Assembly: GCF_044324875.1 (NCBI RefSeq)
Contig: NZ_CP172185.1
Reading direction: 5' to 3' (one strand)
DNA length: 64,000 nucleotides
Source: Escherichia coli
GTDB taxonomy: Bacteria > Pseudomonadota > Gammaproteobacteria > Enterobacterales > Enterobacteriaceae
The notes below the pieces were generated by a model. The model was given only the letters and a program-made list of their open reading frames with translations, ran no database searches and had not been told where the DNA came from. The position numbers were made by a program, and so were the translations under genes. Positions 5,346 to 36,971 of this stretch are shown here, piece after piece (position 1 is the stretch's first letter; every line of letters starts with the position of its first letter).

Positions 5346-5355
5346 TGAGTGAAAG

Positions 5356-5379: not shown

Positions 5380-5386
5380 TTGCGCG

Positions 5387-8089: not shown

Positions 8090-8128
8090 GTTGGAGTCAT
8101 TACCGATTCGATAAACCATGGAGGTTAT

Positions 8129-8302: not shown

Positions 8303-8374
8303 AGCGTAAAAAGGGGTGCCATGAGAAAATGAATCTGCTAGTCAGATGCGCGGGGAAAATCCCCGCGCTTGCCC

Positions 8375-8564
<190 letters not shown>

Positions 8565-8582
<18 letters not shown>

Positions 8583-8630
8583 TCGTTGGCCTCGGTTGAT
8601 AGAAATATCGGTCGGGGCCTTCGTCTTTCT
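8565..8630 (+). ncRNA. sokB: approximate position of SokB antisense RNA (placed by analogy with hok/sok loci)
   Basis: inferred from hok/sok architecture only; ends not determined from sequence. Confidence 0.25.
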
Positions 8631-8856
8631 GATTCCCGGTTAGCCTGAAAACAGAAAGTCTCAGGCACCCGTGAGCATCCTATGTGGTTTCCTTAGGGAC
8701 GAAAATAATCACCTGACGAAATTGCGTGCTGTTTTCCAGAATTTTTCGTCATTCGGTTTAGCCAGTTTAATCATTCGTTACTCTCTTCATTCCAATGGCA
8801 TTATTCTTCTCTGCCATAATTGTTGTAAAAATGTGACGCAAAGAGGTTTTTGGTCG

Positions 8857-8883
8857 TAAGAAATTACCGTCAAGTGCCGATGA
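8857..8883 (+). promoter_or_regulatory. sigma-28 (FliA) type promoter upstream of trg
   Basis: taagaaat-N11-gccgatga resembles the FliA consensus TAAAGTTT-N11-GCCGATAA, about 40 bp upstream of the trg ATG. Confidence 0.5.
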
Positions 8884-8922
8884 CTTTCTATCAGGAGTAA
8901 ACCTGGAAGAGAGTCAACGGTA

Positions 8923-10563
8923 ATGAATACAACTCCCTCACAGCGATTAGGTTTTTTGCATCACATCAGGCTGGTTCCGTTATTTGCCTGCATTCTTGGC
9001 GGTATCTTAGTTCTATTCGCATTAAGTTCAGCTCTGGCTGGCTATTTCCTCTGGCAGGCCGATCGCGATCAGCGTGATGTTACTGCGGAGATTGAGATTC
9101 GGACCGGGTTAGCGAACAGTTCAGATTTTTTGCGTTCAGCCCGGATCAATATGATTCAGGCCGGTGCTGCGAGTCGTATTGCGGAAATGGAAGCAATGAA
9201 GCGAAATATTGCGCAAGCCGAATCGGAGATTAAACAGTCGCAGCAAGGTTATCGTGCTTATCAGAATCGGTCGGTGAAAACACCTGCTGATGAAGCCCTC
9301 GACACTGAATTAAATCAACGCTTCCAGGCTTATATCACGGGTATGCAACCGATGTTGAAATATGCCAAAAATGGCATGTTTGAAGCGATTATCAATCATG
9401 AAAGTGAGCAGATCCGACCGCTGGATAATGCTTATACCGATATTTTGAGCAAAGCCGTTAAGATACGTAGCACCAGAGCCAACCAACTGGCGGAACTGGC
9501 CCATCAGCGCACCCGCCTGGGTGGGATGTTCATGATTGGCGCGTTTGTGCTTGCCCTGGTCATGACGCTGATAACATTTATGGTGCTACGTCGGATCGTC
9601 ATTCGTCCATTGCAACATGCCGCACAACGGATTGAAAAAATCGCCAGTGGCGATCTGACGATGAATGATGATCCGGCAGGTCGTAATGAAATCGGTCGCT
9701 TAAGTCGTCATTTACAGCAAATGCAGCATTCACTGGGGATGACAGTAGGGACCGTTCGACAGGGCGCGGAAGAGATTTATCGTGGCACCAGCGAAATTTC
9801 CGCTGGCAATGCGGACCTTTCATCTCGCACCGAAGAACAAGCGGCGGCAATTGAACAAACTGCCGCCAGCATGGAGCAACTCACTGCGACGGTGAAACAG
9901 AATACAGATAACGCGCATCATGCCAGCAAACTGGCGCAGGAGGCTTCTATTAAAGCCAGCGATGGCGGGCAGACGGTTTCCGGTGTAGTAAAAACGATGG
10001 GCGCTATCTCCACGAGTTCGAAGAAAATTTCCGAGATCACCGCCGTCATCAACAGTATTGCTTTCCAGACGAATATTCTGGCACTGAATGCTGCCGTTGA
10101 AGCCGCGCGAGCGGGTGAGCAAGGGCGTGGATTTGCCGTTGTCGCCAGCGAAGTACGGACACTCGCAAGCCGCAGCGCCCAGGCGGCGAAAGAGATTGAA
10201 GGCTTGATCAGTGAATCAGTCAGGTTAATTGACCTGGGGTCGGATGAGGTAGCAACGGCAGGGAAAACCATGAGCACTATTGTTGATGCCGTCGCGAGTG
10301 TCACACATATCATGCAGGAAATCGCCGCCGCCTCGGATGAACAAAGCAGAGGCATAACACAGGTTAGCCAGGCGATTTCTGAAATGGATAAGGTGACGCA
10401 ACAGAATGCTTCTCTGGTAGAAGAGGCCTCAGCGGCGGCGGTGTCCCTTGAAGAACAGGCGGCACGATTAACTGAGGCGGTGGACGTATTCCGTCTGAAC
10501 AAACATTCTGTGTCGGCCGAACCTCGCGGAGCGGGTGAACCAGTTAGATTCGCTACGGTGTGA
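8923..10563 (+). CDS. trg: methyl-accepting chemotaxis protein III (ribose/galactose)
   Basis: 546-aa ORF with two TM segments, HAMP and conserved MCP signalling domain. Confidence 0.95.
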
Positions 10564-10576
10564 AAATGTTAAAGGA

Positions 10577-10592
10577 GGGATCGACAGATCCC
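10577..10592. terminator. stem-loop between convergent trg and ydcI
   Basis: palindrome gggatcgacagatccc. Confidence 0.4.
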
Positions 10593-10600
10593 TTCACCTT

Positions 10601-11524
10601 TCAGAACGGCATTGATTTTCGAATAGCGTTAATCATCAACTGGCAACCAGAAGAGAACGTCGCATCTACGCGGGTCAGTATTCCAATCGGTTCGCCTGCA
10701 CCATGACCCGGAACAGGCAGGGCCACCAGCGTGGCATGACGCAGGTCGTCTTTTACAGCGCCAGAAGGGACAAACCACACGTAGTCGTATTCAACCGTAA
10801 GTTGACGAGATAGCGAAGCAGACAGTGTTTCGATACAGCCCGAAGGAATTTTACAGCCCTGGCTCTGCACTAATGCATCTGAATGCTGGCGTGGCGCAGT
10901 GCCTTCTGGTGATACAACAACCGGCCATTCCAGCACCCGGCTTAGCGTTACGTTCTCCTGAAGTAGCGGGTGATTAGGGCGGACAACCAGCTTCAGCGAT
11001 TCAAGAAACAGCAGTTCGTAATTAAGCCCGGTCATCAGTTCAGGATCTGACATCCGACCAATGCCGATATCGATTTCCCCGGTTTTTAAACCTGCCAGAA
11101 TCATAGGGTTACTCATTGTCGCAACTTGCAAGGTCGTCTCTTTTTGTTGCTGATGAAACTGACCTATAACCGAAGGTAATATCCCCAGTGCCGCAGTAGG
11201 TAGTGCACCAACCCTGACGACATCATTATTAAGACCTTCTTTACGATGAAGCGACTGTCCGGCAGTGTTGATGGCGTCAAGAACTCTGACTGCATGCGTT
11301 AAAAATTGTTCGCCGGGTAAGGTAAGTTGCGCCCCCTGACGACCACGCTCAAACAAGCGAGCGCCCGTCAGTTGCTCCAGTTCATTCAATGTCTTAGAGA
11401 GCGCAGGTTGACTCAAATTAAGGGTTTCAGCCGCGCGCCCCAAAGTTCCTTGTTGTGCGACAGCTACGAATGTATGAAGGTGGCGCAAACGGATGCGCTG
11501 ACTAAACAGACTATTTTTTTCCAT
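10601..11524 (-). CDS. ydcI: LysR-family transcriptional regulator YdcI
   Basis: LysR N-terminal HTH; start taken at MEKNSL (307 aa); ORF track extends to 11593. Confidence 0.85.
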   Translation of the reverse strand: MEKNSLFSQRIRLRHLHTFVAVAQQGTLGRAAETLNLSQPALSKTLNELEQLTGARLFERGRQGAQLTLPGEQFLTHAVRVLDAINTAGQSLHRKEGLNNDVVRVGALPTAALGILPSVIGQFHQQQKETTLQVATMSNPMILAGLKTGEIDIGIGRMSDPELMTGLNYELLFLESLKLVVRPNHPLLQENVTLSRVLEWPVVVSPEGTAPRQHSDALVQSQGCKIPSGCIETLSASLSRQLTVEYDYVWFVPSGAVKDDLRHATLVALPVPGHGAGEPIGILTRVDATFSSGCQLMINAIRKSMPF

Positions 11525-11740
11525 AAGCGATGTTAAAAACGAAGCGGTGTCGCTGACAAGTGAAGTTGTTTGATTATGATAACTTGATTGCAAAATATTA
11601 TTAACAATTAAAGCAATTGTATTACATCAAAATGGGTAATATTAATGTTTTCGCGGCGAGATCACAGTTTGCAAATTCTTCCCGCCAGAGTGAATGCGGT
11701 TACCTACACTCCAGATTACTGACCACTGGAGGCAGACATT

Positions 11741-13084
11741 ATGGCGAACAGCATCACGGCGGATGAGATTCGGGAACAGTTTTCGCAGGCAATGTCAGCC
11801 ATGTACCAGCAAGAAGTTCCGCAGTACGGCACGCTGCTGGAACTGGTAGCTGATGTGAATCTGGCTGTGCTGGAAAACAATCCTCAACTGCACGAAAAAA
11901 TGGTAAATGCAGACGAGCTGGCGCGACTGAATGTTGAACGTCATGGGGCGATTCGCGTTGGGACTGCACAAGAGCTTGCTACTCTTCGGCGGATGTTTGC
12001 CATTATGGGGATGTACCCGGTGAGCTATTACGATCTCTCGCAGGCGGGCGTGCCGGTACATTCCACAGCATTTCGGCCCATTGATGATGCTTCTCTGGCG
12101 CGTAATCCCTTCCGCGTTTTTACCTCCTTACTCCGCCTTGAGCTTATCGAGAACGAAATTTTGCGCCAGAAAGCGGCGGAGATTCTGCGTCAGCGCGATA
12201 TCTTCACCCCACGTTGTCGACAACTGTTAGAGGAATATGAGCAGCAGGGCGGTTTTAACGAAACACAGGCACAGGAGTTTGTGCAGGAAGCCCTGGAAAC
12301 GTTTCGCTGGCACCAGTCAGCGACGGTGGATGAAGTAACCTATTGCGCCTTGCATAACGAACATCGGCTGATTGCTGATGTGGTCTGTTTTCCTGGATGC
12401 CATATCAACCACCTGACGCCACGCACGCTGGATATTGACCGGGTGCAGTCGATGATGCCTGAATGCGGAATTGAACCCAAAATTCTGATCGAAGGGCCGC
12501 CGCGCCGCGAGGTACCGATTTTACTACGCCAGACCAGTTTTAAAGCACTGGAAGAGACGGTGTTGTTTGCAGGGCAGAAACAGGGCACGCATACCGCGCG
12601 CTTTGGTGAAATAGAGCAGCGTGGCGTGGCATTAACGCCGAAAGGACGACAACTGTATGATGATCTACTGCGGAACGCTGGAACCGGGCAGGATAATCTC
12701 ACTCACCAAATGCATTTACAGGAAACCTTCCGCACTTTTCCTGACAGTGAGTTTTTAATGCGTCAGCAAGGGTTGGCATGGTTCCGGTACCGTCTGACGC
12801 CTTCAGGTGAGGCGCATCGTCAGGCGATTCATTCCGGAGACGATCCACAGCCCTTAATTGAACGTGGTTGGGTAGTGGCGCAACCCATTACCTATGAAGA
12901 TTTCTTGCCCGTTAGCGCGGCGGGGATCTTCCAGTCAAATCTGGGTAATGAAACGCAGGCACGCAGTCACGGTAATGCCAGTCGCGAAACATTTGAGCAG
13001 GCGTTGGGCTGCCCGGTTTTGGATGAGTTCCAGCTTTATCAGGAAGCGGAAGAACGCAGTAAACGTCGCTGTGGTTTGCTTTAA
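11741..13084 (+). CDS. ydcJ: DUF1338-family protein YdcJ
   Basis: 447-aa ORF recognised as YdcJ. Confidence 0.9.
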   Translation: MANSITADEIREQFSQAMSAMYQQEVPQYGTLLELVADVNLAVLENNPQLHEKMVNADELARLNVERHGAIRVGTAQELATLRRMFAIMGMYPVSYYDLSQAGVPVHSTAFRPIDDASLARNPFRVFTSLLRLELIENEILRQKAAEILRQRDIFTPRCRQLLEEYEQQGGFNETQAQEFVQEALETFRWHQSATVDEVTYCALHNEHRLIADVVCFPGCHINHLTPRTLDIDRVQSMMPECGIEPKILIEGPPRREVPILLRQTSFKALEETVLFAGQKQGTHTARFGEIEQRGVALTPKGRQLYDDLLRNAGTGQDNLTHQMHLQETFRTFPDSEFLMRQQGLAWFRYRLTPSGEAHRQAIHSGDDPQPLIERGWVVAQPITYEDFLPVSAAGIFQSNLGNETQARSHGNASRETFEQALGCPVLDEFQLYQEAEERSKRRCGLL

Positions 13085-13308
13085 ATTCTGACCATCCGCC
13101 TTTGCAAAAATTTGCCTGATTTTACAAACGAATCAGGCTCATCCCATCGACATAAAAAAATTGCCGATTAATGCATATTCTCTCAGTTCAACAATTGGAT
13201 TATTAATAAATATTGTCTAGAGTGAGCGGTCATAAATAAGCACTTTCTTGCCGCTGAAAACGACCAGCGCGGGACCATTCACAACACCAGAAGGACTCAC
13301 TTTCAGGT

Positions 13309-14964
13309 ATGGATCGTAGACGATTTATTAAAGGTTCAATGGCTATGGCCGCCGTGTGCGGTACCAGCGGCATTGCTTCTCTTTTTTCTCAGGCGGCATT
13401 CGCGGCAGATTCTGATATTGCCGACGGGCAAACCCAGCGTTTTGACTTCTCCATTCTACAGTCAATGGCGCACGACCTAGCGCAAACAGCGTGGCGTGGT
13501 GCGCCGCGTCCGTTACCTGACACTCTGGCGACAATGACGCCGCAGGCTTATAACAGTATTCAATACGACGCCGAAAAATCGCTCTGGCATAACGTTGAGA
13601 ACCGTCAACTGGACGCTCAGTTCTTCCATATGGGAATGGGTTTCCGTCGCCGCGTTCGTATGTTTTCTGTTGATCCCGCAACACATCTGGCGCGTGAAAT
13701 TCACTTTCGCCCGGAGTTGTTCAAATACAACGATGCGGGTGTTGATACCAAACAATTAGAAGGGCAAAGCGATCTCGGCTTTGCCGGTTTTCGCGTGTTT
13801 AAAGCCCCCGAACTGGCGCGTCGTGATGTAGTATCATTCCTCGGTGCGAGTTATTTCCGCGCCGTTGATGACACATATCAATATGGTTTGTCGGCTCGCG
13901 GCCTGGCGATCGACACTTACACCGACAGTAAAGAAGAGTTCCCCGACTTTACCGCCTTCTGGTTTGATACGGTAAAACCGGGGGCAACTACCTTTACCGT
14001 TTATGCGTTGCTCGATAGCGCCAGTATTACTGGTGCCTATAAGTTCACTATCCATTGTGAGAAAAGTCAGGTGATTATGGATGTGGAAAATCACCTGTAT
14101 GCGCGCAAAGACATTAAACAGCTGGGCATTGCGCCGATGACCAGCATGTTCAGCTGCGGCACTAATGAACGTCGGATGTGCGACACCATTCATCCGCAAA
14201 TCCATGACTCTGATCGTCTGTCCATGTGGCGGGGCAACGGCGAGTGGATTTGCCGTCCGCTGAATAATCCGCAAAAATTGCAGTTCAATGCTTACACCGA
14301 CAACAACCCGAAAGGGTTTGGTTTATTGCAACTGGATCGTGATTTCTCCCATTATCAGGACATTATGGGCTGGTATAACAAACGCCCAAGTCTGTGGGTG
14401 GAACCGCGTAACAAGTGGGGTAAGGGCACCATCGGCCTGATGGAAATCCCAACAACGGGCGAAACGCTGGATAACATTGTCTGCTTCTGGCAGCCAGAAA
14501 AAGCTGTAAAAGCGGGTGATGAGTTTGCATTCCAGTATCGTCTGTACTGGAGTGCGCAACCGCCTGTTCATTGCCCATTAGCGCGCGTTATGGCGACGCG
14601 TACCGGCATGGGCGGTTTCCCGGAAGGTTGGGCGCCAGGTGAACACTATCCCGAAAAGTGGGCGCGTCGTTTTGCCGTCGATTTCGTTGGTGGTGATCTG
14701 AAAGCTGCCGCACCAAAAGGCATTGAGCCGGTGATTACGCTTTCCAGTGGGGAAGCGAAGCAAATCGAAATTCTCTATATTGAACCCATTGAAGGTTATC
14801 GTATTCAGTTTGACTGGTATCCGACTTCGGACTCCACTGATCCGGTCGATATGCGGATGTATCTGCGTTGTCAGGGCGACGCTATCAGTGAAACATGGCT
14901 GTATCAGTATTTCCCACCAGCGCCGGATAAACGTCAGTATGTTGACGACCGCGTGATGAGTTAG
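13309..14964 (+). CDS. opgD: periplasmic glucan biosynthesis protein D (Tat-secreted)
   Basis: 551-aa ORF with twin-arginine signal [10 protein letters not shown]. Confidence 0.95.
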
Positions 14965-14976
14965 TCGTTTTTTCTT

Positions 14977-15000
14977 CGGCACCTTCTTCGGGAGGTGCCG
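14977..15000 (+). terminator. stem-loop after opgD
   Basis: inverted repeat cggcacc...ggtgccg. Confidence 0.4.
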
Positions 15001-15103
15001 TCTGGTTAAACACGATCCCGCTCGCATTTTTCCCTAAGTTAAATGAGTAATCTGATGGTGTGTATTTCAGATACACCTTGTCAGCCACTAACAGGGAGTG
15101 CGT

Positions 15104-15328
15104 ATGTTTCCAGAATACCGAGATTTAATATCCCGTCTGAAAAACGAAAATCCTCGCTTTATGTCCTTGTTCGATAAACACAATAAACTTGATCATGAAA
15201 TTGCCAGAAAGGAAGGTTCCGACGGTCGAGGGTACAATGCGGAAGTGGTCCGCATGAAAAAACAAAAGCTACAGTTAAAAGATGAGATGCTCAAAATCCT
15301 GCAGCAGGAGAGCGTCAAAGAGGTGTAA
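15104..15328 (+). CDS. ydcH: DUF465-family small protein YdcH
   Basis: 74-aa ORF from MFPEYRDL. Confidence 0.8.
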   Translation: MFPEYRDLISRLKNENPRFMSLFDKHNKLDHEIARKEGSDGRGYNAEVVRMKKQKLQLKDEMLKILQQESVKEV

Positions 15329-15337
15329 ACTTTCCTA

Positions 15338-15363
15338 AGCCGCCAGCCAGGCGGCTTTTTTAA
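15338..15363 (+). terminator. Rho-independent terminator after ydcH
   Basis: hairpin agccgccagccaggcggct followed by tttttt. Confidence 0.7.
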
Positions 15364-15390
15364 CAACTGCATGGAGTGACTGGAGATAAG

Positions 15391-15930
15391 ATGACTGAAA
15401 CGATAAAAGTAAGCGAATCACTTGAATTACATGCTGTTGCAGAAAATCACGTCACACCTCTTTATCAGTTAATCTGTAAAAATAAAACCTGGTTACAGCA
15501 GTCGCTAAACTGGCCGCAGTTTGTTCAAATTGAAGAGGACACACGAAAAACGGTGCAGGGCAATGTAATGTTGCATCAACGCGGCTATGCCAAAATGTTC
15601 ATGATTTTCAAAGAAGATGAACTTATCGGCGTTATCTCGTTTAATCGTATTGAACCACTGAATAAAACCGCTGAAATCGGCTACTGGCTGGACGAATCTC
15701 ATCAGGGGGAGGGGATCATTTCTCAGGCGCTGCAGGCATTGATTCATCATTATGCTCAGTCTGGTGAACTTAGACGCTTCGTGATCAAATGTCGGGTGGA
15801 CAATGCGCAAAGCAACCAGGTCGCTTTGCGCAATGGTTTTATCCTTGAAGGTTGCCTGAAACAGGCTGAGTTTCTGAATGATGCCTATGATGATGTGAAC
15901 TTATACGCGCGTATTATCGATTCACAATAA
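15391..15930 (+). CDS. rimL: ribosomal protein L7/L12 serine acetyltransferase
   Basis: 179-aa GNAT ORF from [10 protein letters not shown]. Confidence 0.9.
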
Positions 15931-16902
15931 CCCTGCCAGCGGCGTTCGCGTAATGCGCTCTTCGCCGTTAATGACTTTTGGACCACGGACATGAACCGTG
16001 TCGCCATCAAAGGCTTCAACGACGGCGTGGTCGGTTAACTCCACATGGTTTTCAATTATCACCGCACCTGTAATACGGCTCTCACCTTGTATTACAACGT
16101 GCTCGTCGAGCAGAATCGGTCCGCCACGTACCACGGCATTTCCGCCAATCAAGACATGATGTTTTAACACACAATTACCTTCCACAATGGCATATTCCGC
16201 TACCTGCGAACTGTAATGAATTGTCGGAATGGCATCTTCTTCTATGCCAGCTTTCACCTGCGCGTGACCGTAGACTTTAGCACAATCGCATAGCCAGACG
16301 TTGTTCTCTTCATTACCTTCAACGCTGGCAAAATCAAAAACTTCGGCGCGATGTTCAATAAAAGCATACCGGACGACGGCATCGCCATAAATTTGTGCCT
16401 GGTGAACAATACGCGAGGCGCTAACCCTTGCGCGATCATAAATTTGTAGCAGGAGTTGATGGTCGGAGGTTAAGCCTTGCGCGGCGACGATCATAGAATG
16501 TTGATCAATTAAGGCGTGACCAAATATTCTACATTGACCGCAAACTAATGCGTCACGAATGGTGACGCTGTCACTTATATGTGCACCCTGACTGATTTCA
16601 CTATTATCGATCCAGACGTTATCCGTTGCGTAAACCTCTCCCCAAAGGACGCTGGTGCCGGTGATACGCGTATTACCGGAAATCACCGTTCCGCCGAACG
16701 CAATAGCATTCTGATCGTAAATCCAGCAATTTCCTTCCTGCGCTAACACCGTTTCGCGATCGATCCAGCCGCCAGCGGTTCCTGCTATCACATCGTTAAA
16801 ATCGCTCATGGCGATAATTTGCCGTAATAACACACTTTTTTTAGTGCCATCATCCTGATAACTAAAGGCTCGCTGTTCTTCACTTAGACGATATTTGCGC
16901 AT
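15922..16902 (-). CDS. ydcK: hexapeptide-repeat protein YdcK
   Basis: 326-aa ORF with left-handed beta-helix hexapeptide repeats. Confidence 0.9.
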
Positions 16903-17025
16903 AGCGTTTTCCCACAGGTGACTTACTATAACCGTAGCAAATTCTGCGGCTCTGGCTATGCTCGAGAAAATTCCATAAAATGCATTTCAAATATACTTTA
17001 TAAATTAAACAAAATGAGTAAGAAG

Positions 17026-18018
17026 ATGCAGAGCGATAAAGTGCTCAATTTGCCGGCAGGCTACTTTGGTATTGTGTTGGGGACGATAGGGATGGGATTT
17101 GCCTGGCGCTATGCCAGCCAGGTTTGGCAGGTCAGCCACTGGTTAGGGGATGGGCTAGTGATTCTGGCGATGATCATCTGGGGATTATTGACTAGCGCAT
17201 TTATTACCCGACTCATACGCTTTCCGCATAGCGTGCTGGCGGAAGTGCGTCATCCAGTGATGAGCAGTTTTGTGAGTTTGTTTCCGGCAACGACGATGCT
17301 GGTGGCGATTGGTTTTGTTCCGTGGTTTCGCCCACTGGCGGTGTGCCTGTTCAGTTTTGGCGTCGTGGTGCAACTGGCTTATGCCGCCTGGCAAACTGCG
17401 GGATTATGGCGCGGATCTCATCCTGAAGAAGCTACCACGCCTGGACTGTATCTGCCGACAGTTGCCAACAACTTTATCAGCGCAATGGCCTGTGGTGCAT
17501 TGGGCTACACCGACGCTGGTCTGGTGTTTTTAGGCGCAGGCGTTTTCTCATGGTTAAGCCTGGAACCGGTGATCTTGCAGCGTCTGCGCAGTTCGGGAGA
17601 ATTACCCACGGCGCTGCGGACATCACTCGGCATTCAGCTCGCTCCTGCGCTGGTGGCCTGTAGTGCCTGGCTGAGCGTCAACGGCGGCGAGGGTGACACG
17701 CTGGCGAAAATGCTTTTCGGTTATGGGCTGCTGCAACTGCTGTTTATGCTACGTCTGATGCCATGGTATCTCTCCCAGCCATTTAATGCTTCATTCTGGA
17801 GTTTCTCGTTCGGCGTATCTGCACTGGCAACCACCGGTTTGCATCTGGGGAGTGGCAGCGATAATGGATTTTTCCATACGCTGGCGGTGCCGCTGTTTAT
17901 CTTTACCAATTTTATAATTGCAATACTGCTCATCCGTACTTTCGCGCTTCTGATGCAGGGGAAATTGTTAATCAGAACCGAGCGCGCCGTTTTAATGAAA
18001 GCTGAGGACAAAGAATGA
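17026..18018 (+). CDS. tehA: tellurite resistance / C4-dicarboxylate transporter family protein TehA
   Basis: 330-aa polytopic membrane ORF from MQSDKVLN. Confidence 0.9.
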
Positions 18019-18618
18019 TCATTCGTGACGAAAACTATTTTACTGATAAGTATGAATTAACCCGCACACACTCTGAAGTACTGGAAGCGGTGAAAGTGGT
18101 TAAACCCGGTAAAACGCTGGATCTGGGCTGTGGCAATGGTCGTAATAGTCTTTACCTGGCAGCCAATGGTTATGAAGTTGACGCATGGGATAAAAATGCC
18201 ATGAGTATCGCCAACGTCGAGCGTATTAAATCCATTGAAAATCTGGATAATTTACACACCCGGGTCGTTGATCTGAATAACCTTACGTTTGATGGGCAAT
18301 ACGATTTTATTCTTTCGACTGTGGTGCTGATGTTCCTTGAGGCTAAAACCATCCCAGGGCTGATTGCCAATATGCAACGTTGCACTAAACCTGGCGGTTA
18401 CAACCTGATTGTGGCGGCGATGGATACCGCTGATTATCCATGTACCGTCGTGTACCGTCGGCTTCCCGTTTGCCTTCAAAGAGGGAGAATTACGTCGATA
18501 TTACGAAGGCTGGGAGATGGTGAAATACAATGAAGACGTCGGCGAGCTGCACCGCACCGACGCCAACGGTAATCGTATTAAACTGCGTTTCGCCACGATG
18601 CTGGCACGTAAAAAATAA
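18015..18618 (+). pseudogene. tehB: tehB (SAM-dependent tellurite methyltransferase) disrupted by a frameshift
   Basis: ORFs 18015-18533 and 18409-18618 join into one continuous methyltransferase if one copy of the tandem 10-bp repeat at 18441-18460 is removed. Confidence 0.85.
18441..18460 (+). repeat. perfect 10-bp tandem duplication tgtaccgtcg x2 inside tehB
   Basis: read directly from the sequence. Confidence 0.9.
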
Positions 18619-18920
18619 CCTGGTAAGAACAAGGCGCGTGAAAATTCCCCACGCTGAGATGGTCTACTGTTCTTCTTTTCGGTAAGCATAATTTTTATCG
18701 AATGGATGTGAAATTAATCACAGTAGTCGAAGTTTTTTAGCAGCTTAACTTACTGAAATTTAACTACTGATGATTGACTTAGCCCCTTTTTCGGCATTGA
18801 CTATGTCGTCTGAAAAGGGGCTGAAAAATTTATTTTCACCAACACTTTTTTTGCCACAACACGAAGCGGCGCTTTTTGCTATAACTTAGAAAGTAATATA
18901 ATCATCTCAGGAAACTATTC

Positions 18921-19589
18921 ATGCGTACCACATCAATTGCGAAAGTTGCAGCTTTATGCGGCTTGTTGGCTCTGTCTGGTTGTGCCTCTAAAATCACCCA
19001 GCCAGATAAATATTCTGGTTTTTTAAACAATTACTCTGATTTAAAAGAAACAACCTCAGCAACAGGTAAACCTGTTTTACGTTGGGTAGACCCGAGTTTT
19101 GATCAAAGCAAATATGACAGCATCGTCTGGAACCCAGTCACTTATTATCCGGTACCGAAACCATCTACCCAGGTAGGGCAGAAAGTTCTGGATAAAATTT
19201 TGAGTTATACCAACACCGAAATGAAAGAAGCGATTGCGCAGCGTAAACCACTGGTTACCACCGCTGGGCCGCGTAGTCTGATTTTCCGTGGGGCCATTAC
19301 CGGTGTTGATACCAGCAAAGAAGGGCTGCAATTCTATGAAGTGGTTCCTGTCGCATTAGTGGTCGCGGGGACGCAAATGGCGACGGGCCACCGTACCATG
19401 GATACTCGCCTGTATTTTGAAGGTGAGCTGATTGATGCAGCTACTAATAAACCGGTTATCAAAGTCGTTCGTCAGGGCGAAGGTAAAGACCTGAATAACG
19501 AAAGTACGCCAATGGCTTTCGAAAATATTAAACAAGTTATTGATGACATGGCGACCGATGCCACCATGTTTGACGTTAACAAAAAGTAA
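18921..19589 (+). CDS. ydcL: lipoprotein YdcL
   Basis: 222-aa ORF with lipobox LSGC. Confidence 0.9.
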   Translation: MRTTSIAKVAALCGLLALSGCASKITQPDKYSGFLNNYSDLKETTSATGKPVLRWVDPSFDQSKYDSIVWNPVTYYPVPKPSTQVGQKVLDKILSYTNTEMKEAIAQRKPLVTTAGPRSLIFRGAITGVDTSKEGLQFYEVVPVALVVAGTQMATGHRTMDTRLYFEGELIDAATNKPVIKVVRQGEGKDLNNESTPMAFENIKQVIDDMATDATMFDVNKK

Positions 19590-19622
19590 TTCCAGCCGCG
19601 CCATCGTAAGATGCGCTTTTTA

Positions 19623-20795
19623 TTATCGGTTTCTGTGAGCGATTAAATTCAACACCACGTAACAAACGCCTCCGGCAATTAATCCCCAGAACGCAGAACC
19701 AATCCCGACCAGCGTCAATCCACTTGCCGTTACCAGAAATGCCACCACCGCCGCGTCGCGCTCACGCTCATTATGCAGCGCCTGATACAAACTGCCGCCA
19801 ATGGTACTCAACAGCGCCAGACCTGCCAGCATCTGGATCCAACTTACGGGCAGGGCAGCCATCATCCCGGTAATGGCACTACCAAAAAGACCTGCGAGCA
19901 AATAAAAAATGCCTGCAACGGCAGCTGCCAGCCAACGTTGATCTTTATCCGGATGCGCTTCCGGGCTTTGACAAATAGCCGCGGTGAGTGCCGCAATACC
20001 GACGGAATAAACGCCGAAAGGGGAAAAAACAAGCGCCAGCAATCCAGTAAACACAATCAACGGCGAAACAGGAGCCGAATACCCGGCTGCTTTCATTGCT
20101 GCGATACCTGGAGCGTTTTGCGATGCCATCGTCACCAGAAAAAGGGGGAGTGCAACGCTCAGACTGTGAGCAAACGAAAAATCAGGGGTAATATAAGTGG
20201 GGAGAACGGGTTTAAAGACAACATCATTTGTGACAACGTCACCTTGCGCCATAACGATCACGATCCCAATAATCATCGCGGCAATTACCGCATAGCGCGG
20301 CGCAACGGCCCTGGTTGCCAGCCATACCAGCAACATACTGCCACACAACGTAAATTGACCATCCAGACTGGCAAACGCCTGTAAACCAAAGCGTAATAAA
20401 ATCCCGGCAAGCATTGCTGCCGCAAGCGAGTGCGGAATAATGCGCATCAGACGAGCAAAGAGTCCCGTTATGCCGCAGAGGACTATTAACGCGTTGGTGA
20501 CAATAAAAACGCCGATGGCTTCGTTAAGTGTTAGTCCCTGTAATCCGGTGACCAACAAAGCCGCGCCAGGCGTTGACCATGCGGTGAGAACAGGTACGCG
20601 ATACCATAATGTCAGAGTCAGCGTACTGACGCCCATTGCCAGCCCCAGCGCCGTCATCCAGCCAGAGATTTGTGCAGTGGTGGCTCCGGCGACAATCGCT
20701 GCTTGCCAGATTATTGCCGCTGAACTGGCGTAGCCAATTAATACCGCCAGAAACCCCGCCAGTAGCGTGGGTGGAGGAATAGAAAACAGACGCAT
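19623..20795 (-). CDS. ydcO: benzoate-transporter-family membrane protein YdcO
   Basis: polytopic membrane ORF; start taken at MRLFSIPPP because the longer ORF would overlap divergent ydcN. Confidence 0.85.
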   Translation of the reverse strand: MRLFSIPPPTLLAGFLAVLIGYASSAAIIWQAAIVAGATTAQISGWMTALGLAMGVSTLTLTLWYRVPVLTAWSTPGAALLVTGLQGLTLNEAIGVFIVTNALIVLCGITGLFARLMRIIPHSLAAAMLAGILLRFGLQAFASLDGQFTLCGSMLLVWLATRAVAPRYAVIAAMIIGIVIVMAQGDVVTNDVVFKPVLPTYITPDFSFAHSLSVALPLFLVTMASQNAPGIAAMKAAGYSAPVSPLIVFTGLLALVFSPFGVYSVGIAALTAAICQSPEAHPDKDQRWLAAAVAGIFYLLAGLFGSAITGMMAALPVSWIQMLAGLALLSTIGGSLYQALHNERERDAAVVAFLVTASGLTLVGIGSAFWGLIAGGVCYVVLNLIAHRNR

Positions 20796-20886
20796 AGTCA
20801 CCTCGTGCGTTATAGCGTACAGGTACCGTAGCATTTGTCCGTTATAACGCACAAGTGATAAACTTCCGTTTTGCCGGAGGAGTCGC

Positions 20887-21423
20887 ATGGAAAATCTCGC
20901 TCGCTTTTTATCCACCACACTTAAACAACTACGCCAGCAGCGCGGCTGGAGTCTTTCGCGACTGGCCGAAGCGACAGGCGTTTCTAAAGCGATGTTAGGG
21001 CAGATTGAGCGTAATGAGTCCAGCCCGACGGTCGCGACATTATGGAAAATTGCCACCGGGTTGAATGTGCCATTTTCGACATTTATTTCTCCGCCGCAGT
21101 CCGCTACGCCTTCAGTTTATGATCCGCAACAGCAGGCGATGGTGATCACTTCGCTGTTTCCTTATGATCCACAACTCTGCTTTGAACACTTCTCGATTCA
21201 GATGGCACCTGGTGCAATAAGTGAATCGACGCCCCATGAGAAGGGAGTAATCGAACATGTTGTCGTCATTGATGGGCAACTTGATCTGTGCGTTGATGGT
21301 GAATGGCAGAGCCTTAATTGTGGAGAAGGCGCTCGATTTGCTGCAGACGTTACGCATGTCTATCGTAATGGTGGGGAGCAAATCGTACATTTTCATTCCC
21401 TCATCCATTACCCACGCAGTTAA
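20887..21423 (+). CDS. ydcN: XRE-family HTH / cupin transcriptional regulator YdcN
   Basis: 178-aa ORF with N-terminal HTH and C-terminal cupin. Confidence 0.9.
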   Translation: MENLARFLSTTLKQLRQQRGWSLSRLAEATGVSKAMLGQIERNESSPTVATLWKIATGLNVPFSTFISPPQSATPSVYDPQQQAMVITSLFPYDPQLCFEHFSIQMAPGAISESTPHEKGVIEHVVVIDGQLDLCVDGEWQSLNCGEGARFAADVTHVYRNGGEQIVHFHSLIHYPRS

Positions 21424-21495
21424 GCGGGAAAACTATTTCGCAACGTCGCGCTTGTGGCTAAAATAGCCGCCATTTTTCAGCTACTGGATAAGAAT

Positions 21496-23457
21496 GTGAC
21501 CGTATCTTCTCATCGACTTGAACTGTTAAGCCCGGCACGCGATGCCGCCATTGCCCGCGAAGCTATTTTGCACGGTGCCGATGCTGTTTATATCGGCGGC
21601 CCTGGTTTTGGTGCCCGTCATAATGCCAGTAATAGCCTGAAAGATATTGCCGAACTGGTGCCGTTTGCCCATCGTTATGGTGCAAAAATTTTCGTCACGC
21701 TTAACACCATTTTGCATGATGATGAGCTGGAACCTGCGCAACGGCTGATTACCGACCTCTACCAGACCGGCGTCGATGCGCTGATTGTTCAGGATATGGG
21801 GATTCTGGAACTTGATATTCCGCCGATTGAACTGCACGCCAGTACGCAGTGCGATATTCGCACAGTAGAAAAAGCGAAGTTCCTCTCTGATGTTGGCTTT
21901 ACGCAGATTGTGCTGGCGCGAGAGCTGAATCTTGAGCAGATCCGCGCGATTCACCAGGCCACGGACGCGACCATTGAATTCTTTATTCATGGTGCATTGT
22001 GCGTGGCCTATTCTGGTCAGTGCTACATTTCTCATGCGCAAACAGGGCGTAGCGCCAACCGTGGCGATTGCTCGCAGGCATGCCGTTTGCCATACACATT
22101 GAAAGACGATCAGGGGCGGGTGGTTTCTTATGAAAAACATCTGCTGTCGATGAAAGATAACGATCAGACTGCCAACCTTGGCGCGCTGATTGATGCTGGC
22201 GTGCGCTCCTTCAAGATTGAAGGGCGTTACAAAGATATGAGCTACGTGAAGAATATCACCGCGCATTATCGCCAAATGCTGGATGCCATTATTGAAGAAC
22301 GTGGCGATCTGGCGCGTGCTTCATCAGGTCGTACTGAACATTTCTTTGTTCCATCGACGGAAAAGACTTTCCACCGTGGTAGCACAGATTATTTTGTGAA
22401 TGCCCGTAAAGGGGATATCGGCGCGTTCGATTCGCCGAAATTTATCGGCCTGCCGGTGGGTGAAGTATTGAAAGTGGCGAAAGATCATCTTGATGTTGCC
22501 GTCACCGAGCCACTGGCAAATGGCGATGGCCTGAACGTGATGATTAAACGTGAAGTAGTCGGTTTTCGTGCCAATACGGTAGAAAAAACCGGAGAAAATC
22601 AGTACCGCGTCTGGCCAAATGAGATGCCTGCGGATTTGCATAAAATTCGTCCGCATCATCCGCTTAATCGTAATCTGGACCATAACTGGCAGCAGGCGTT
22701 GACCAAAACATCCAGCGAACGTCGCGTAGCGGTAGACATTGAACTGGGCGGATGGCAGGAACAACTGATTCTGACCCTGACCAGTGAAGAGGGCGTCAGC
22801 GTCACGCATACGCTGGATGGACAATTCGACGAAGCTAATAACGCCGAAAAAGCGCTTAATAACCTGAAAGATGGTCTGGCTAAGCTGGGGCAAACCATCT
22901 ATTACGCCCGCGATGTGCAAATTAACCTGCCTGGTGCGCTGTTTGTACCGAACAGTCTGTTAAATCAGTTCCGCCGTGAGGCCGCCGAAATGCTGGATGC
23001 TGCGCGTCTTGCCAGTTATCAGCGCGGCAGTCGTAAACCGGTTGCTGATCCTGCGCCGGTTTATCCGCAAACGCATCTGAGTTTCCTCGCGAACGTTTAC
23101 AACCAGAAAGCGCGTGAATTTTATCATCGCTATGGTGTGCAGCTGATTGACGCGGCGTATGAGGCACATGAAGAGAAGGGCGAAGTCCCGGTGATGATCA
23201 CCAAGCATTGTCTGCGCTTTGCCTTTAATCTGTGCCCGAAACAGGCGAAAGGCAATATCAAAAGCTGGAAGGCGACGCCAATGCAACTGGTTAATGGCGA
23301 TGAAGTGTTAACGCTGAAATTTGATTGCCGTCCGTGTGAGATGCACGTCATCGGCAAAATTAAAAATCACATTCTGAAAATGCCGTTACCGGGAAGCGTA
23401 GTGGCATCCGTAAGTCCGGATGATCTGCTGAAAACATTGCCGAAGCGAAAAGGGTAA
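21496..23457 (+). CDS. rlhA: U32-family peptidase-like protein YdcP/RlhA (23S rRNA hydroxylation)
   Basis: peptidase U32 family ORF; GTG start at 21496 assumed (653 aa); ORF track begins at 21454. Confidence 0.85.
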   Translation: MTVSSHRLELLSPARDAAIAREAILHGADAVYIGGPGFGARHNASNSLKDIAELVPFAHRYGAKIFVTLNTILHDDELEPAQRLITDLYQTGVDALIVQDMGILELDIPPIELHASTQCDIRTVEKAKFLSDVGFTQIVLARELNLEQIRAIHQATDATIEFFIHGALCVAYSGQCYISHAQTGRSANRGDCSQACRLPYTLKDDQGRVVSYEKHLLSMKDNDQTANLGALIDAGVRSFKIEGRYKDMSYVKNITAHYRQMLDAIIEERGDLARASSGRTEHFFVPSTEKTFHRGSTDYFVNARKGDIGAFDSPKFIGLPVGEVLKVAKDHLDVAVTEPLANGDGLNVMIKREVVGFRANTVEKTGENQYRVWPNEMPADLHKIRPHHPLNRNLDHNWQQALTKTSSERRVAVDIELGGWQEQLILTLTSEEGVSVTHTLDGQFDEANNAEKALNNLKDGLAKLGQTIYYARDVQINLPGALFVPNSLLNQFRREAAEMLDAARLASYQRGSRKPVADPAPVYPQTHLSFLANVYNQKAREFYHRYGVQLIDAAYEAHEEKGEVPVMITKHCLRFAFNLCPKQAKGNIKSWKATPMQLVNGDEVLTLKFDCRPCEMHVIGKIKNHILKMPLPGSVVASVSPDDLLKTLPKRKG

Positions 23458-23507
23458 AACGCCAGTTTTCTGGTTACTCACAACTTATCAAATCTGCATG
23501 ATATTGT

Positions 23508-23543
23508 TGGCCGGGTAAGGCGTTACGCCGCATCCGGCAATAA
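23508..23543. repeat. REP (repetitive extragenic palindrome) element
   Basis: gccgggtaaggcgttacgccgcatccggca matches the REP consensus. Confidence 0.6.
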
Positions 23544-23548
23544 ATGAC

Positions 23549-23779
23549 TCAACGTTGTCCCGCTTCTGGTTTGCGCGATTTTTGCCAGTAAAAATGCTCG
23601 CGCAAACCTTCCGCCGACTCTTCCGCCACAGCACGCAATTCATCGCTGTCCGCTTCATGACGCAGTTGATGATCCACATTCTTTACCCACATAAATTCAT
23701 GTCCTTTGTGCCCTGCCATGAGTTGTCCTGAGAACAGCGCACACGTTAATAAGACAACCGATAACGCCTTCGTAAACAT
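23549..23779 (-). CDS. yncJ: DUF2554 secreted protein YncJ
   Basis: 76-aa ORF with signal peptide. Confidence 0.85.
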   Translation of the reverse strand: MFTKALSVVLLTCALFSGQLMAGHKGHEFMWVKNVDHQLRHEADSDELRAVAEESAEGLREHFYWQKSRKPEAGQR

Positions 23780-24000
23780 CCCGCCACCTTTTTCTCACCT
23801 TTTGCCGCTATGATGCCGATCGTTTCTTGAGGTTATTATTCAGTTTTGCAAATTAGCGCAAAGAAATTCTGGAATCTTCCTTCCTGATTTTGCATTGCAT
23901 TCTGCCGTTGCGGCGATTAAGTGCTATTTTCGAGAAAATTACACACGGAGGTAAACAATAATGTTTACTTTGTTGATATACTCAGCGGCAGGGAGGCGAT

Positions 24001-24177
24001 GTGAAACAAAGCGAGTTCAGACGTTGGCTCGAATCTCAGGGCGTCAATGTAGCAAATGGCAGCAACCATTTAAAACTCAGGTTTCACGGGAGGCGCAGTG
24101 TCATGCCGCGTCACCCCAGCGAAGAGATTAAAGAACCATTACGTAAAGCCATTCTGAAACAACTCGGTTTGAGTTAA
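24001..24177 (+). CDS. hicA: type II toxin HicA (mRNA interferase), GTG start
   Basis: hand-translated 58-aa ORF MKQSEFRRWLESQGV... directly upstream of hicB. Confidence 0.85.
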   Translation: MKQSEFRRWLESQGVNVANGSNHLKLRFHGRRSVMPRHPSEEIKEPLRKAILKQLGLS

Positions 24178-24222
24178 TCGCCAATTAAAAAGGTTAATGA
24201 CATGCGAGAGACAGTCGAAATT

Positions 24223-24639
<417 letters not shown>

Positions 24640-24717
24640 TAACAGTTAATGAAAAGTTGTCATTTTTAACAACTGATATAGACTGCCGAATCACCTGCAC
24701 ATAATAACGATTCGATA

Positions 24718-26124
24718 ATGAAAAAATACCAGCAGCTTGCAGAACAATTACGCGAGCAGATTGCGTCGGGTATCTGGCAACCCGGAGATCGTTTGCCTTC
24801 GTTGCGTGACCAGGTGGCGCTTTCTGGCATGAGCTTTATGACTGTCAGCCATGCCTATCAGTTGCTCGAAAGTCAGGGATATATTATCGCGCGACCGCAG
24901 TCGGGTTATTACGTTGCGCCACAGGCAATAAAAATGCCGAAAGCGCCAGTCATTCCAGTCACACGAGATGAAGCAGTCGATATCAACACCTATATTTTTG
25001 ATATGTTGCAGGCCAGTCGTGATCCGTCGGTAGTTCCGTTTGCCTCGGCCTTTCCCGACCCGCGACTTTTCCCCCTCCAACAACTAAACCGCTCGCTGGC
25101 GCAGGTAAGCAAAACCGCCACGGCGATGAGCGTGATTGAAAACTTACCGCCAGGAAACGCAGAACTGCGTCAGGCTATTGCTCGTCGCTATGCCTTACAG
25201 GGCATCACTATTTCTCCTGATGAAATTGTCATTACCGCCGGGGCGTTAGAGGCATTAAACCTCAGTTTACAAGCGGTAACGGAACCAGGCGATTGGGTGA
25301 TAGTAGAGAATCCTTGTTTCTACGGCGCGTTGCAGGCGCTGGAGCGGTTACGGCTGAAGGCGTTATCGGTGGCGACGGATGTTAAAGAAGGGATCGATCT
25401 TCAGGCGCTGGAACTGGCGTTGCAGGAGTATCCGGTGAAAGCGTGCTGGCTGATGACTAATAGCCAGAATCCACTCGGATTTACCTTAACGCCGCAAAAA
25501 AAAGCACAACTGGTGGCGTTGCTCAATCAGTACAACGTAACGCTGATTGAAGATGACGTGTACAGCGAACTTTATTTTGGACGGGAAAAACCGCTGCCTG
25601 CGAAAGCGTGGGATCGCCACGATGGTGTTTTGCATTGCTCTTCGTTTTCGAAATGTCTGGTGCCTGGTTTTCGTATTGGTTGGGTCGCCGCCGGAAAACA
25701 TGCACGTAAAATTCAACGATTGCAGTTGATGAGTACGCTTTCCACCAGCTCACCGATGCAGCTTGCGCTGGTGGATTACCTTTCCACGCGCCGATACGAC
25801 GCCCATCTTCGTCGCCTGCGTCGCCAGCTTGCGGAACGTAAACAACGTGCCTGGCAGGCACTGCTGCGTTATCTGCCTGCGGAAGTGAAAATTCATCATA
25901 ATGACAGCGGTTATTTTCTCTGGCTGGAACTCCCCGCGCCGTTAGATGCGGGCGAATTAAGCCTGGCGGCACTGACGCATCATATCAGTATTGCGCCGGG
26001 TAAAATGTTTTCTACCGGTGAAAACTGGTCACGTTTTTTTCGTTTTAATACCGCGTGGCAGTGGGGAGAACGTGAAGAACAGGCGGTAAAACAATTAGGC
26101 AAATTTATTCAAGAACGGCTGTAA
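24718..26124 (+). CDS. ydcR: MocR/GntR-family regulator with aminotransferase-like domain, YdcR
   Basis: 468-aa ORF; N-terminal GntR HTH plus PLP-aminotransferase fold. Confidence 0.9.
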   Translation: MKKYQQLAEQLREQIASGIWQPGDRLPSLRDQVALSGMSFMTVSHAYQLLESQGYIIARPQSGYYVAPQAIKMPKAPVIPVTRDEAVDINTYIFDMLQASRDPSVVPFASAFPDPRLFPLQQLNRSLAQVSKTATAMSVIENLPPGNAELRQAIARRYALQGITISPDEIVITAGALEALNLSLQAVTEPGDWVIVENPCFYGALQALERLRLKALSVATDVKEGIDLQALELALQEYPVKACWLMTNSQNPLGFTLTPQKKAQLVALLNQYNVTLIEDDVYSELYFGREKPLPAKAWDRHDGVLHCSSFSKCLVPGFRIGWVAAGKHARKIQRLQLMSTLSTSSPMQLALVDYLSTRRYDAHLRRLRRQLAERKQRAWQALLRYLPAEVKIHHNDSGYFLWLELPAPLDAGELSLAALTHHISIAPGKMFSTGENWSRFFRFNTAWQWGEREEQAVKQLGKFIQERL

Positions 26125-26368
26125 TAGCGTTTAATTAAATTCCTCTCAGGTTGGGTAATATGAATTTCGAATAGCAGTCATATTTCCTAACTCCTTGTCT
26201 ATACTCCAGAAGATAACCTTACAGACGGCATAATGCGCGGTAGCTCACAACCTGATTAAATTTTCTCAGGGGCGAAGGTGTGCCTGCAAGCCGCCGTCTA
26301 TGGTTAAACAAGGAGATATTTTTACGGCACGGCGGCTGAACAATTAATTACGACAGGAGTAAGACCTT

Positions 26369-27514
26369 ATGAGCAAGACATTTGCCCGCAGCAGCCTGTG
26401 TGCGCTCACCATGACAATAATCACCGCTCATGCCGCCGAACCGCCTACCAATTTAGATAAACCGGAAGGGCGACTGGATATTATCGCCTGGCCGGGATAC
26501 ATCGAACGCGGACAAACTGATAAACAATACGACTGGGTAACGCAATTCGAAAAAGAGACAGGCTGCGCGGTGAATGTGAAAACCGCCGCGACTTCCGATG
26601 AAATGGTCAGTCTGATGACCAAAGGGGGTTACGATCTGGTTACAGCATCCGGCGATGCCTCGCTGCGCCTGATTATGGGCAAACGCGTGCAGCCGATTAA
26701 TACCGCATTGATTCCCAACTGGAAAACGCTCGATCCGCGCGTGGTTAAAGGCGACTGGTTTAACGTTAGTGGCAAAGTTTATGGCACACCCTACCAATGG
26801 GGGCCGAACCTGTTGATGTACAACACTAAAACCTTCCCGACGCCGCCGGATAGCTGGCAAGTGGTCTTTGTTGAGCAGAATCTGCCGGACGGCAAGAGCA
26901 ATAAAGGCCGCGTACAGGCCTATGATGGCCCTATCTACATTGCGGACGCTGCGTTGTTCGTTAAAGCCACTCAGCCGCAGTTGGGCATCAGCGATCCGTA
27001 TCAACTCACCGAAGAACAGTACCAGGCGGTGCTGAAAGTGCTGCGCGATCAACACAGTTTGATCCATCGCTACTGGCATGACACGACCGTGCAAATGAGC
27101 GATTTCAAAAACGAGGGTGTGGTTGCTTCCAGTGCCTGGCCCTATCAGGCCAACGCCCTGAAAGCCGAAGGCCAGCCTGTCGCTACCGTTTTCCCGAAAG
27201 AGGGCGTTACCGGTTGGGCTGACACCACCATGCTACATAGCGAAGCGAAACATCCGGTTTGCGCCTACAAATGGATGAACTGGTCATTAACGCCAAAAGT
27301 GCAGGGCGATGTGGCGGCCTGGTTTGGCTCGTTACCAGTAGTGCCGGAAGGGTGTAAAGCCAGTCCGTTATTAGGCGAGAAAGGTTGTGAAACAAACGGT
27401 TTTAACTATTTCGATAAAATCGCCTTCTGGAAAACGCCTATAGCAGAAGGGGGCAAGTTTGTTCCCTACAGTCGCTGGACGCAGGATTACATTGCCATTA
27501 TGGGCGGTCGCTAA
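26369..27514 (+). CDS. ydcS: periplasmic substrate-binding protein of an ABC transporter, YdcS
   Basis: 381-aa ORF with signal peptide, polyamine-binding-protein-like. Confidence 0.9.
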   Translation: MSKTFARSSLCALTMTIITAHAAEPPTNLDKPEGRLDIIAWPGYIERGQTDKQYDWVTQFEKETGCAVNVKTAATSDEMVSLMTKGGYDLVTASGDASLRLIMGKRVQPINTALIPNWKTLDPRVVKGDWFNVSGKVYGTPYQWGPNLLMYNTKTFPTPPDSWQVVFVEQNLPDGKSNKGRVQAYDGPIYIADAALFVKATQPQLGISDPYQLTEEQYQAVLKVLRDQHSLIHRYWHDTTVQMSDFKNEGVVASSAWPYQANALKAEGQPVATVFPKEGVTGWADTTMLHSEAKHPVCAYKWMNWSLTPKVQGDVAAWFGSLPVVPEGCKASPLLGEKGCETNGFNYFDKIAFWKTPIAEGGKFVPYSRWTQDYIAIMGGR

Positions 27515-27531
27515 CTTCGCTGGGGTGTTTT

Positions 27532-30271: not shown

Positions 30272-30292
30272 CCACTGATACAGGAATATGCT

Positions 30293-36967: not shown

Positions 36968-36971
36968 ATAA

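What the first reader, a model, noticed from the sequence alone, without database searches (positions are those of the whole stretch)
18409..18533. tehB inactivated by a perfect 10-bp tandem duplication
The tellurite methyltransferase gene is split into two overlapping ORFs. The sequence tgtaccgtcg occurs twice in tandem at 18441-18460, and removing one copy restores a single continuous reading frame (...[21 protein letters not shown]...). This could be a genuine strain-specific frameshift, possibly reversible by slippage, or an assembly artefact.
Basis: seen in the sequence. Interest (0 to 1): 0.5.

Follow-up and report, generated by a model that had tools for sequence, protein, structure and literature searches.

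The report
Frameshifted tehB: private 10-bp duplication
A tellurite-detoxifying methyltransferase gene (tehB) in this E. coli strain carries a real, strain-private 10-base tandem duplication that shifts the reading frame. This is an ordinary recent pseudogene, not a new biological mechanism.

Summary
TGTACCGTCG occurs twice head-to-tail at 18441-18460, the only exact 10+10 tandem in the window (about 0.04 expected by chance). It splits tehB into ORFs 18015-18533 and 18409-18618. Deleting one copy gives a 197-aa TehB, 195/197 identical to PDB 4dq0.

The duplication is derived and private. None of 5,412 complete RefSeq E. coli genomes carrying tehB has it. E. coli 042, which is 99.9% identical across the surrounding 22.7 kb, has one copy. 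No GTDB species representative or JGI metagenome contig contains the junction.

It is probably not an assembly artefact. Independent Logan assemblies of two SRA runs (SRR31073000, SRR31072984) carry it on contigs 100% identical to the window.

The product keeps residues 1-145 and loses the last 52. That segment is the most conserved part of the family and contains His176, Arg177 and Arg184, so the allele is most likely null.

Chromosomal tehAB gives tellurite resistance only when overexpressed, so the loss is probably near-neutral. Precise reversion by slippage is possible but untested, and nothing suggests a switch. Interest is low.

The parts
17026..18018 (+). tehA (330 aa, SLAC1-family transporter), intact. 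Its stop codon overlaps the tehB start (ATGA).
   Evidence: Gene call in L001 (8951-9943, plus an offset of 8075) with PF03595. tehA is annotated at the same position in KE40 and 042.
18015..18618 (+). tehB pseudogene: 604 nt instead of the normal 594 nt.
   Evidence: It matches annotated tehB at 594 of 604 positions, and the only difference is the 10-nt gap.
18015..18533 (+). 5' ORF of 172 aa: native TehB residues 1-145 followed by 27 out-of-frame residues and a TGA stop.
   Evidence: It matches Pfam PF03848 at model positions 1-147 of 193 only.
18441..18450 (+). Copy 1 of TGTACCGTCG (codons Cys143-Thr144-Val145 plus one base).
18451..18460 (+). Copy 2 of TGTACCGTCG. These are the extra 10 nt, absent from 042 and from all complete E. 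coli genomes checked.
18409..18618 (+). 3' ORF in the +1 frame (69 aa, mechanical TTG start). It encodes native TehB residues 143-197, including His176, Arg177 and Arg184. A gene caller reported only a 33-aa piece (18517-18618).

Best explanation
This is a recent, lineage-private 10-bp tandem duplication inside the chromosomal tehB gene of an E. coli strain closely related to EAEC 042 in this region. The insertion shifts the frame after Val145. Translation runs 27 wrong codons and stops, giving a 172-aa product. That product keeps the N-terminal SAM-binding part but lacks the last 52 residues of the TehB domain. The allele is therefore most likely a null (a pseudogene). tehA upstream is untouched. 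Because native-level tehAB is not reported to confer tellurite resistance, the loss is probably neutral or nearly so. It most likely arose as a spontaneous replication or repair error. Loss of one copy by slipped misalignment would restore the wild type exactly, but the locus does not behave as a switch in the available data. Shown: the sequence, its derived and private status, its presence in two independently assembled runs, and the loss of the conserved C-terminus from the frame. Inferred: loss of enzyme activity, neutrality, mode of origin and reversibility.
For: The exact 10+10 tandem lies at 18441-18460 and is unique in the window. The repaired gene gives a 197-aa protein, 195/197 identical to PDB 4dq0 and aligned over its full length to 2xva/2xvm. 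In 5,412 of 5,426 complete E. coli genomes tehB is present and none has the duplication: the best hits are 594/604, and an 80-nt query across the junction always maps to 70 nt. E. coli 042 differs from window 1-7336 and 8105-23526 by only 6 SNPs, one intergenic 1-nt indel, one IS1 and this duplication, so the single copy is ancestral and the local assembly is clean. The exact 172-aa product is encoded on Logan contigs from SRR31073000 and SRR31072984, which are 100% identical to the window over 20.5 and 18.5 kb. The truncated ORF covers only positions 1-147 of 193 in PF03848. The lost segment is nearly invariant from E. coli to Salmonella (2i6g) and Haemophilus (3m70), including H176, R/K177 and R184. 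tehAB confers resistance when overexpressed from multicopy plasmids (PMC12348037).
Against: I did not see raw reads. The two Logan runs have neighbouring accession numbers and identical sequence, so they are probably the same clone and possibly the source of the window. They show the allele is in the reads but are not independent biological occurrences. Loss of function is inferred from conservation, not measured. The role of His176, Arg177 and Arg184 comes from my memory of Choudhury et al. 2011 (Biochem J 435:85), which is not held in the library. There is no microhomology at the junction, so simple slippage does not obviously explain the origin.
Confidence: 0.9

Rival explanations
1. It is an assembly or sequencing artefact, and the real genome has one copy.
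For: The allele is seen in no other genome, which is what a one-off error would also look like.
Against: Two separately assembled SRA runs carry the identical junction on contigs of about 35 kb. From my knowledge of the method, Logan uses k=31 de Bruijn assembly, so a 20-nt tandem is spanned by single k-mers and cannot be created by repeat collapse or expansion. The surrounding 22.7 kb shows no other coding indel against 042, so the assembly is not indel-prone. The usual sequencing errors are 1-nt homopolymer indels, not exact 10-nt tandems.
Confidence: 0.03
2. It is a reversible contingency (phase-variation-like) switch that turns TehB off and on by gain and loss of a 10-nt unit.
For: Two perfect adjacent copies can misalign during replication, and loss of one restores the wild type exactly (sequence).
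Against: There are only two copies. All 5,412 other genomes have exactly one, and no 3-copy or other variant appeared. The Logan contigs are unbranched across the site in both runs. Other tehB-disrupting alleles are unrelated lesions, for example P0003, whose tail fits a 1-nt deletion at codon 155.
Confidence: 0.02
3. It is a selected loss of function: inactivating tehB gave this lineage an advantage, for example slightly lower trimethoprim susceptibility.
For: In K-12 W3110, a tehB deletion raised the trimethoprim MIC from 0.16 to 0.32 ug/ml and complementation restored it (PMC8355897). Independent tehB-truncating alleles exist in other isolates.
Against: The effect is only two-fold in a laboratory strain. 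tehB is intact in essentially all sampled complete genomes, so there is no sign of recurrent selection. A single private allele cannot demonstrate selection.
Confidence: 0.07
4. The duplication is the footprint of a mobile element: a 10-bp target-site duplication left after an IS inserted into tehB and was later removed with both target copies retained.
For: The junction has no microhomology, as expected for a target-site duplication. The strain shows much IS activity nearby: IS1 with a 9-bp target duplication, and nested IS66, IS21 and IS2 elements.
Against: From general knowledge, E. coli lacks canonical end joining, and IS loss normally occurs by slippage between the target repeats, which leaves one copy. 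No IS remnant is present, and the IS elements seen nearby do not typically make 10-bp duplications.
Confidence: 0.04
5. Function is retained, either through ribosomal frameshifting or through two fragments that reassemble.
For: The 3' part remains open in the +1 frame, and a gene caller predicted a 33-aa C-terminal ORF (18517-18618).
Against: The allele is private, so no frameshift site is conserved. Any read-through product would carry extra residues in the core of the fold. There is no evidence that the C-terminal fragment is translated or assembles.
Confidence: 0.01

Closest known systems
E. coli TehB, SAM-dependent tellurite/selenite methyltransferase (PDB 2xva, 2xvm, 4dq0; Pfam PF03848), encoded in the tehA-tehB operon
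   Same: It has the same overlap with tehA and the same neighbours: ydcK, tehA, tehB, ydcL, ydcO.
   Different: The gene here carries a 10-nt insertion after codon 145. The translated product covers only positions 1-147 of 193 in the family model and lacks the conserved C-terminus.
Ordinary frameshift pseudogenes in E. coli genomes, annotated 'frameshifted' by PGAP
   Same: It is a small indel in an accessory gene, private to a lineage. Examples seen in neighbouring loci of other strains are yncG 'frameshifted' in strain 16843 and ydcF 'internal stop' in 042. Another tehB allele (P0003, 165 aa) has a different frameshift.
   Different: The lesion is a 10-nt perfect tandem duplication without junction microhomology, rather than the more common 1-nt homopolymer indel.
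Short-sequence-repeat contingency loci (phase variation by slipped-strand mispairing)
   Same: It is a tandem repeat inside a coding region whose unit length is not a multiple of three, so copy number sets the frame.
   Different: There are only two copies, no copy-number polymorphism was seen among more than 5,400 genomes, and the ancestral state is non-repetitive.

Membership tests
TehB (PF03848) tellurite methyltransferase | Full-length match to the TehB domain (about 193 model positions; 197 aa in E. coli) | tested here: not met
   The translated ORF 18015-18533 matches PF03848 at positions 1-147 of 193 only. After removing one repeat copy in silico, the match is full length. So this is a tehB gene by descent but does not encode a complete TehB.
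TehB (PF03848) tellurite methyltransferase | Class I SAM-binding motif (DLGCGxGRN) in the N-terminal half | tested here: met
   [11 protein letters not shown] at residues 35-45 is identical to 2xva and 4dq0. Generic Methyltransf_25, _11 and _12 domains hit residues 35-130.
TehB (PF03848) tellurite methyltransferase | Conserved C-terminal active-site residues His176, Arg177 and Arg184 in frame (their role is recalled from Choudhury et al. 2011, which I could not read here) | tested here: not met
In the actual gene they lie in the +1 frame, downstream of the premature stop. The segment is conserved in the Salmonella and Haemophilus homologues.
TehB (PF03848) tellurite methyltransferase | Operon context: tehB start overlapping the tehA stop | tested here: met
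   tehA lies at 17026-18018 and tehB starts at 18015 (ATGA overlap). The layout is the same in KE40, 042 and Ecol_316.
TehB (PF03848) tellurite methyltransferase | SAM-dependent methylation of tellurite/selenite; resistance when overexpressed | not testable with these tools
   This needs an enzyme assay or MIC measurement with the cloned allele.
Contingency locus / phase-variable gene | Repeat copy number varies among close relatives or within populations | tested here: not met
   All complete genomes have one copy. The window and both SRA runs have two. No other copy number was seen and no metagenome hit was found.
Contingency locus / phase-variable gene | Observed reversible ON/OFF switching | not testable with these tools
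   This needs a fluctuation assay or deep read analysis.
Programmed ribosomal frameshift gene | Frameshift conserved in homologues, with a slippery or stimulatory signal | tested here: not met
   The frameshift is absent from all 5,412 other tehB copies.

The most novel reading that the evidence does not exclude
The duplication is not neutral decay. Instead it is either an adaptive knockout (for example contributing to reduced trimethoprim susceptibility, as a tehB deletion does two-fold in K-12) or one that can be precisely reverted by slippage when chalcogen stress returns, making it a rudimentary two-state switch.
Probability: 0.05. Interest if true: 0.3.

Novelty: already known. Interest (0 to 1): 0.1.

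Why it matters
It matters little beyond annotation. tehB in this strain should be labelled a frameshifted pseudogene, and the strain should not be credited with a functional TehB. The allele could serve as a clonal marker for this lineage, since it is absent from more than 5,400 complete genomes. It is a clean example of a microhomology-free 10-bp tandem duplication. It does not open or resolve any outstanding question.

Tried and rejected
1. A single-sequence AlphaFold2 model of the repaired TehB, meant to map the lost secondary-structure elements, gave mean pLDDT 37 and pTM 0.28. It is unusable and I drew nothing from it. I relied instead on the Pfam model span and alignments to solved homologues.

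2. The primary TehB papers are not held in the library: Choudhury 2011, Taylor 1994, Liu 2000, and Choudhury & Beis 2010. A search for papers naming His176 or Arg177 together with TehB found nothing relevant. The active-site statement therefore rests on memory, on the matching residue numbers and on conservation.

3. An exact-junction scan of GTDB species representatives found 0 hits, as did a scan of JGI metagenome contigs. A paper search for the two SRR accessions also found nothing, so the strain and study remain unidentified.

4. I checked the other exact tandems in the window as controls. The 9+9 at 38541 in pqqU has the same length in other strains and differs only by SNPs, so it is not an insertion.

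5. The promoter and terminator scan around tehAB showed nothing above shuffle expectation.

6. The first wide search ranked KE40-like genomes best at 97.9%. This briefly suggested a divergent lineage, but local comparison showed 042 is 99.9% identical up to about position 23.5 kb.

Full report
**Observation.** The window reads ...GATTATCCA TGTACCGTCG TGTACCGTCG GCTTCCCG... with the two copies at 18441-18450 and 18451-18460.
- Tandem Repeats Finder reports one array in 17000-20000: period 10, 2.0 copies, 100% match.
- The register is unique. The base before the array is A and the unit ends in G; the base after is G and the unit starts with T. The repeat therefore cannot be extended, and the junction has no microhomology.
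- A scan of the whole window for exact adjacent repeats of period 8-30 found three: 8+8 at 56759, 9+9 at 38541, and this 10+10.
- Mononucleotide shuffles give on average 0.04 exact 10+10 tandems per 64 kb.
- Removing one copy gives 594 nt and a single 197-aa product containing ...[21 protein letters not shown]....

**Identity of the gene.**
- The repaired protein matches solved TehB structures end to end: 4dq0 (E = 6e-133, 195/197 identical), 2xva/2xvm from E. coli K-12, Salmonella 2i6g, and Haemophilus 3m70.
- The start codon overlaps the stop of a 330-aa SLAC1-family gene (tehA, 17026-18018).
- The neighbours are rimL, ydcK, tehA, tehB, ydcL, ydcO and sutR, exactly as annotated in strains KE40, 042 and Ecol_316.

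**The duplication is derived and private.**
- The 604-nt gene was searched against 5,426 complete RefSeq E. coli genomes. It found tehB in 5,412, and none matched at 99% or better. The best hits are 98.3%, which is 594 of 604, meaning identical apart from a 10-nt gap.
- An 80-nt query centred on the junction always mapped to 70 nt of the subject when fully covered. The 36 records scoring 99% or better are the ones with only partial coverage.
- The nearest complete genome in this region is EAEC strain 042. Window 1-7336 and 8105-23526 differ from it by six SNPs, one intergenic 1-nt indel (19613), an IS1 insertion (7337-8104) and this duplication.
- The ancestral state is therefore one copy. The surrounding assembly also has no tendency to indel errors in coding sequence.
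- Exact-junction scans of GTDB species representatives and of JGI metagenome contigs found nothing.

**Artefact or real.**
- The exact 172-aa frameshift product is present in the protein collection, from Logan assemblies only, on two contigs.
- These contigs are SRR31073000 contig 48 (35,201 nt) and SRR31072984 contig 16 (35,200 nt).
- The fetched stretches are 100% identical to the window over 20,458 and 18,519 nt, duplication included.
- From my knowledge of the method, Logan contigs come from k=31 de Bruijn assembly of raw reads. A 20-nt array is spanned by single k-mers, so an assembler cannot invent it.
- The neighbouring accession numbers and identical sequence suggest the two runs are one clone, perhaps the very source of the window. 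They show that the allele is in the reads of two runs, not that it arose twice. I could not inspect read pile-ups.

**Consequence for the protein.**
- The frame is native through Val145. It is followed by 27 unrelated residues ([27 protein letters not shown]) and a stop at 18531-18533.
- Against Pfam, the product matches the TehB model at positions 1-147 of 193 and still matches generic SAM-methyltransferase models over residues 35-130.
- The 52 lost residues are the best conserved stretch of the family. From E. coli to Haemophilus the segment YNE..GELH(R/K)[17 protein letters not shown] is almost invariant.
This matches my recollection that Choudhury et al. 2011 named these residues as the oxyanion-binding residues of the active site. 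That paper could not be read here.
- The allele is thus very probably null. This is an inference.
- tehA is unaffected. ydcL begins 300 nt downstream of the native tehB stop, so I expect no polar effect on it, although no promoter was identified.

**Likely significance.**
- A 2025 paper restates that tehAB confers tellurite resistance when overexpressed from multicopy plasmids (PMC12348037). Loss of native-level TehB is therefore probably of little consequence.
- One reported phenotype of a tehB deletion in K-12 is a two-fold, complementable rise in trimethoprim MIC (PMC8355897). This allows a weak adaptive reading, but a single private allele cannot support it.
- Another lesion does occur: cluster member P0003 (165 aa, present in a 5.2-Mb genome) has a tail that fits a 1-nt deletion at codon 155. 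Most other short cluster members appear to be contig-end partials.
- Pseudogenes of the same ordinary kind are annotated in neighbouring genes of other strains: ydcF in 042 and yncG in strain 16843.

**Origin and reversibility (inference).**
- With no microhomology at the junction, simple primer slippage is not an obvious route. A spontaneous replication or repair error is the default explanation.
- A retained transposon target-site duplication is a minor alternative. IS activity is evident nearby, but E. coli has no efficient end joining and no IS remnant is present.
- Once formed, two perfect adjacent 10-mers can misalign, and loss of one restores the wild type exactly, so reversion is possible.
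- Nothing suggests a functional switch. There are only two copies, the ancestral sequence is non-repetitive, and no other copy number appears anywhere.

**Comparison and verdict.**
- This is the known tehB gene carrying a routine inactivating indel. It is a tehB by descent and context.
- It fails the family tests that require a complete domain and in-frame C-terminal residues.
- It is not a contingency locus and not a programmed frameshift.
- Novelty is minimal and interest is low (0.1).

Noticed in passing
window 7337-8104: An IS1 copy (768 bp) flanked by a 9-bp target duplication GATTCGATA (7328-7336 and 8105-8113). It lies in the cybB-ydcA intergenic region and is absent at this site in E. 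coli 042.
   Followed up: partly
window 46483-53163: A 6.7-kb nest of insertion sequences relative to 042, inside the peptidase-M35 gene just downstream of the T6SS vgrG/tssI gene (43745-46150). An IS66-family (ISCro1-like) element has its tnpA split by an IS21-family element (istA 47161-48807, istB 48581-49579), followed by a partial IS2 (52148-53118, minus strand). No complete E. coli genome covers 80% or more of 42900-58700.
   Followed up: partly
window 38541-38558: An exact 9+9 tandem GCCCGTTGC x2 inside pqqU/yncD. Other strains have the same length with one SNP in each unit, so it is not an insertion and the gene stays in frame.
   Followed up: yes
window 56759-56774: An exact 8+8 tandem AAAACTGC x2 in an apparently intergenic stretch between ORFs 55993-56628 and 57021-57590.
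   Followed up: no
window ~23500: Identity to E. coli 042 drops from 99.9% (1-23526) to 98.7% (23524-37170). This suggests a recombination boundary near the 3' end of rlhA. 042 carries an IS1397 there and the window does not.
   Followed up: partly
window 19613: A 1-nt deletion relative to 042 in the ydcL-ydcO intergenic region. It is the only other indel in 22.7 kb of near-identical sequence.
   Followed up: no
protein P0003 (other E. coli genomes; BDY94759.1, BDZ03353.1): An independent tehB truncation (165 aa) seen on 13 contigs, including a 5.2-Mb chromosome. Its out-of-frame tail [12 protein letters not shown] fits a 1-nt deletion in GGAGAA at codon 155.
   Followed up: partly
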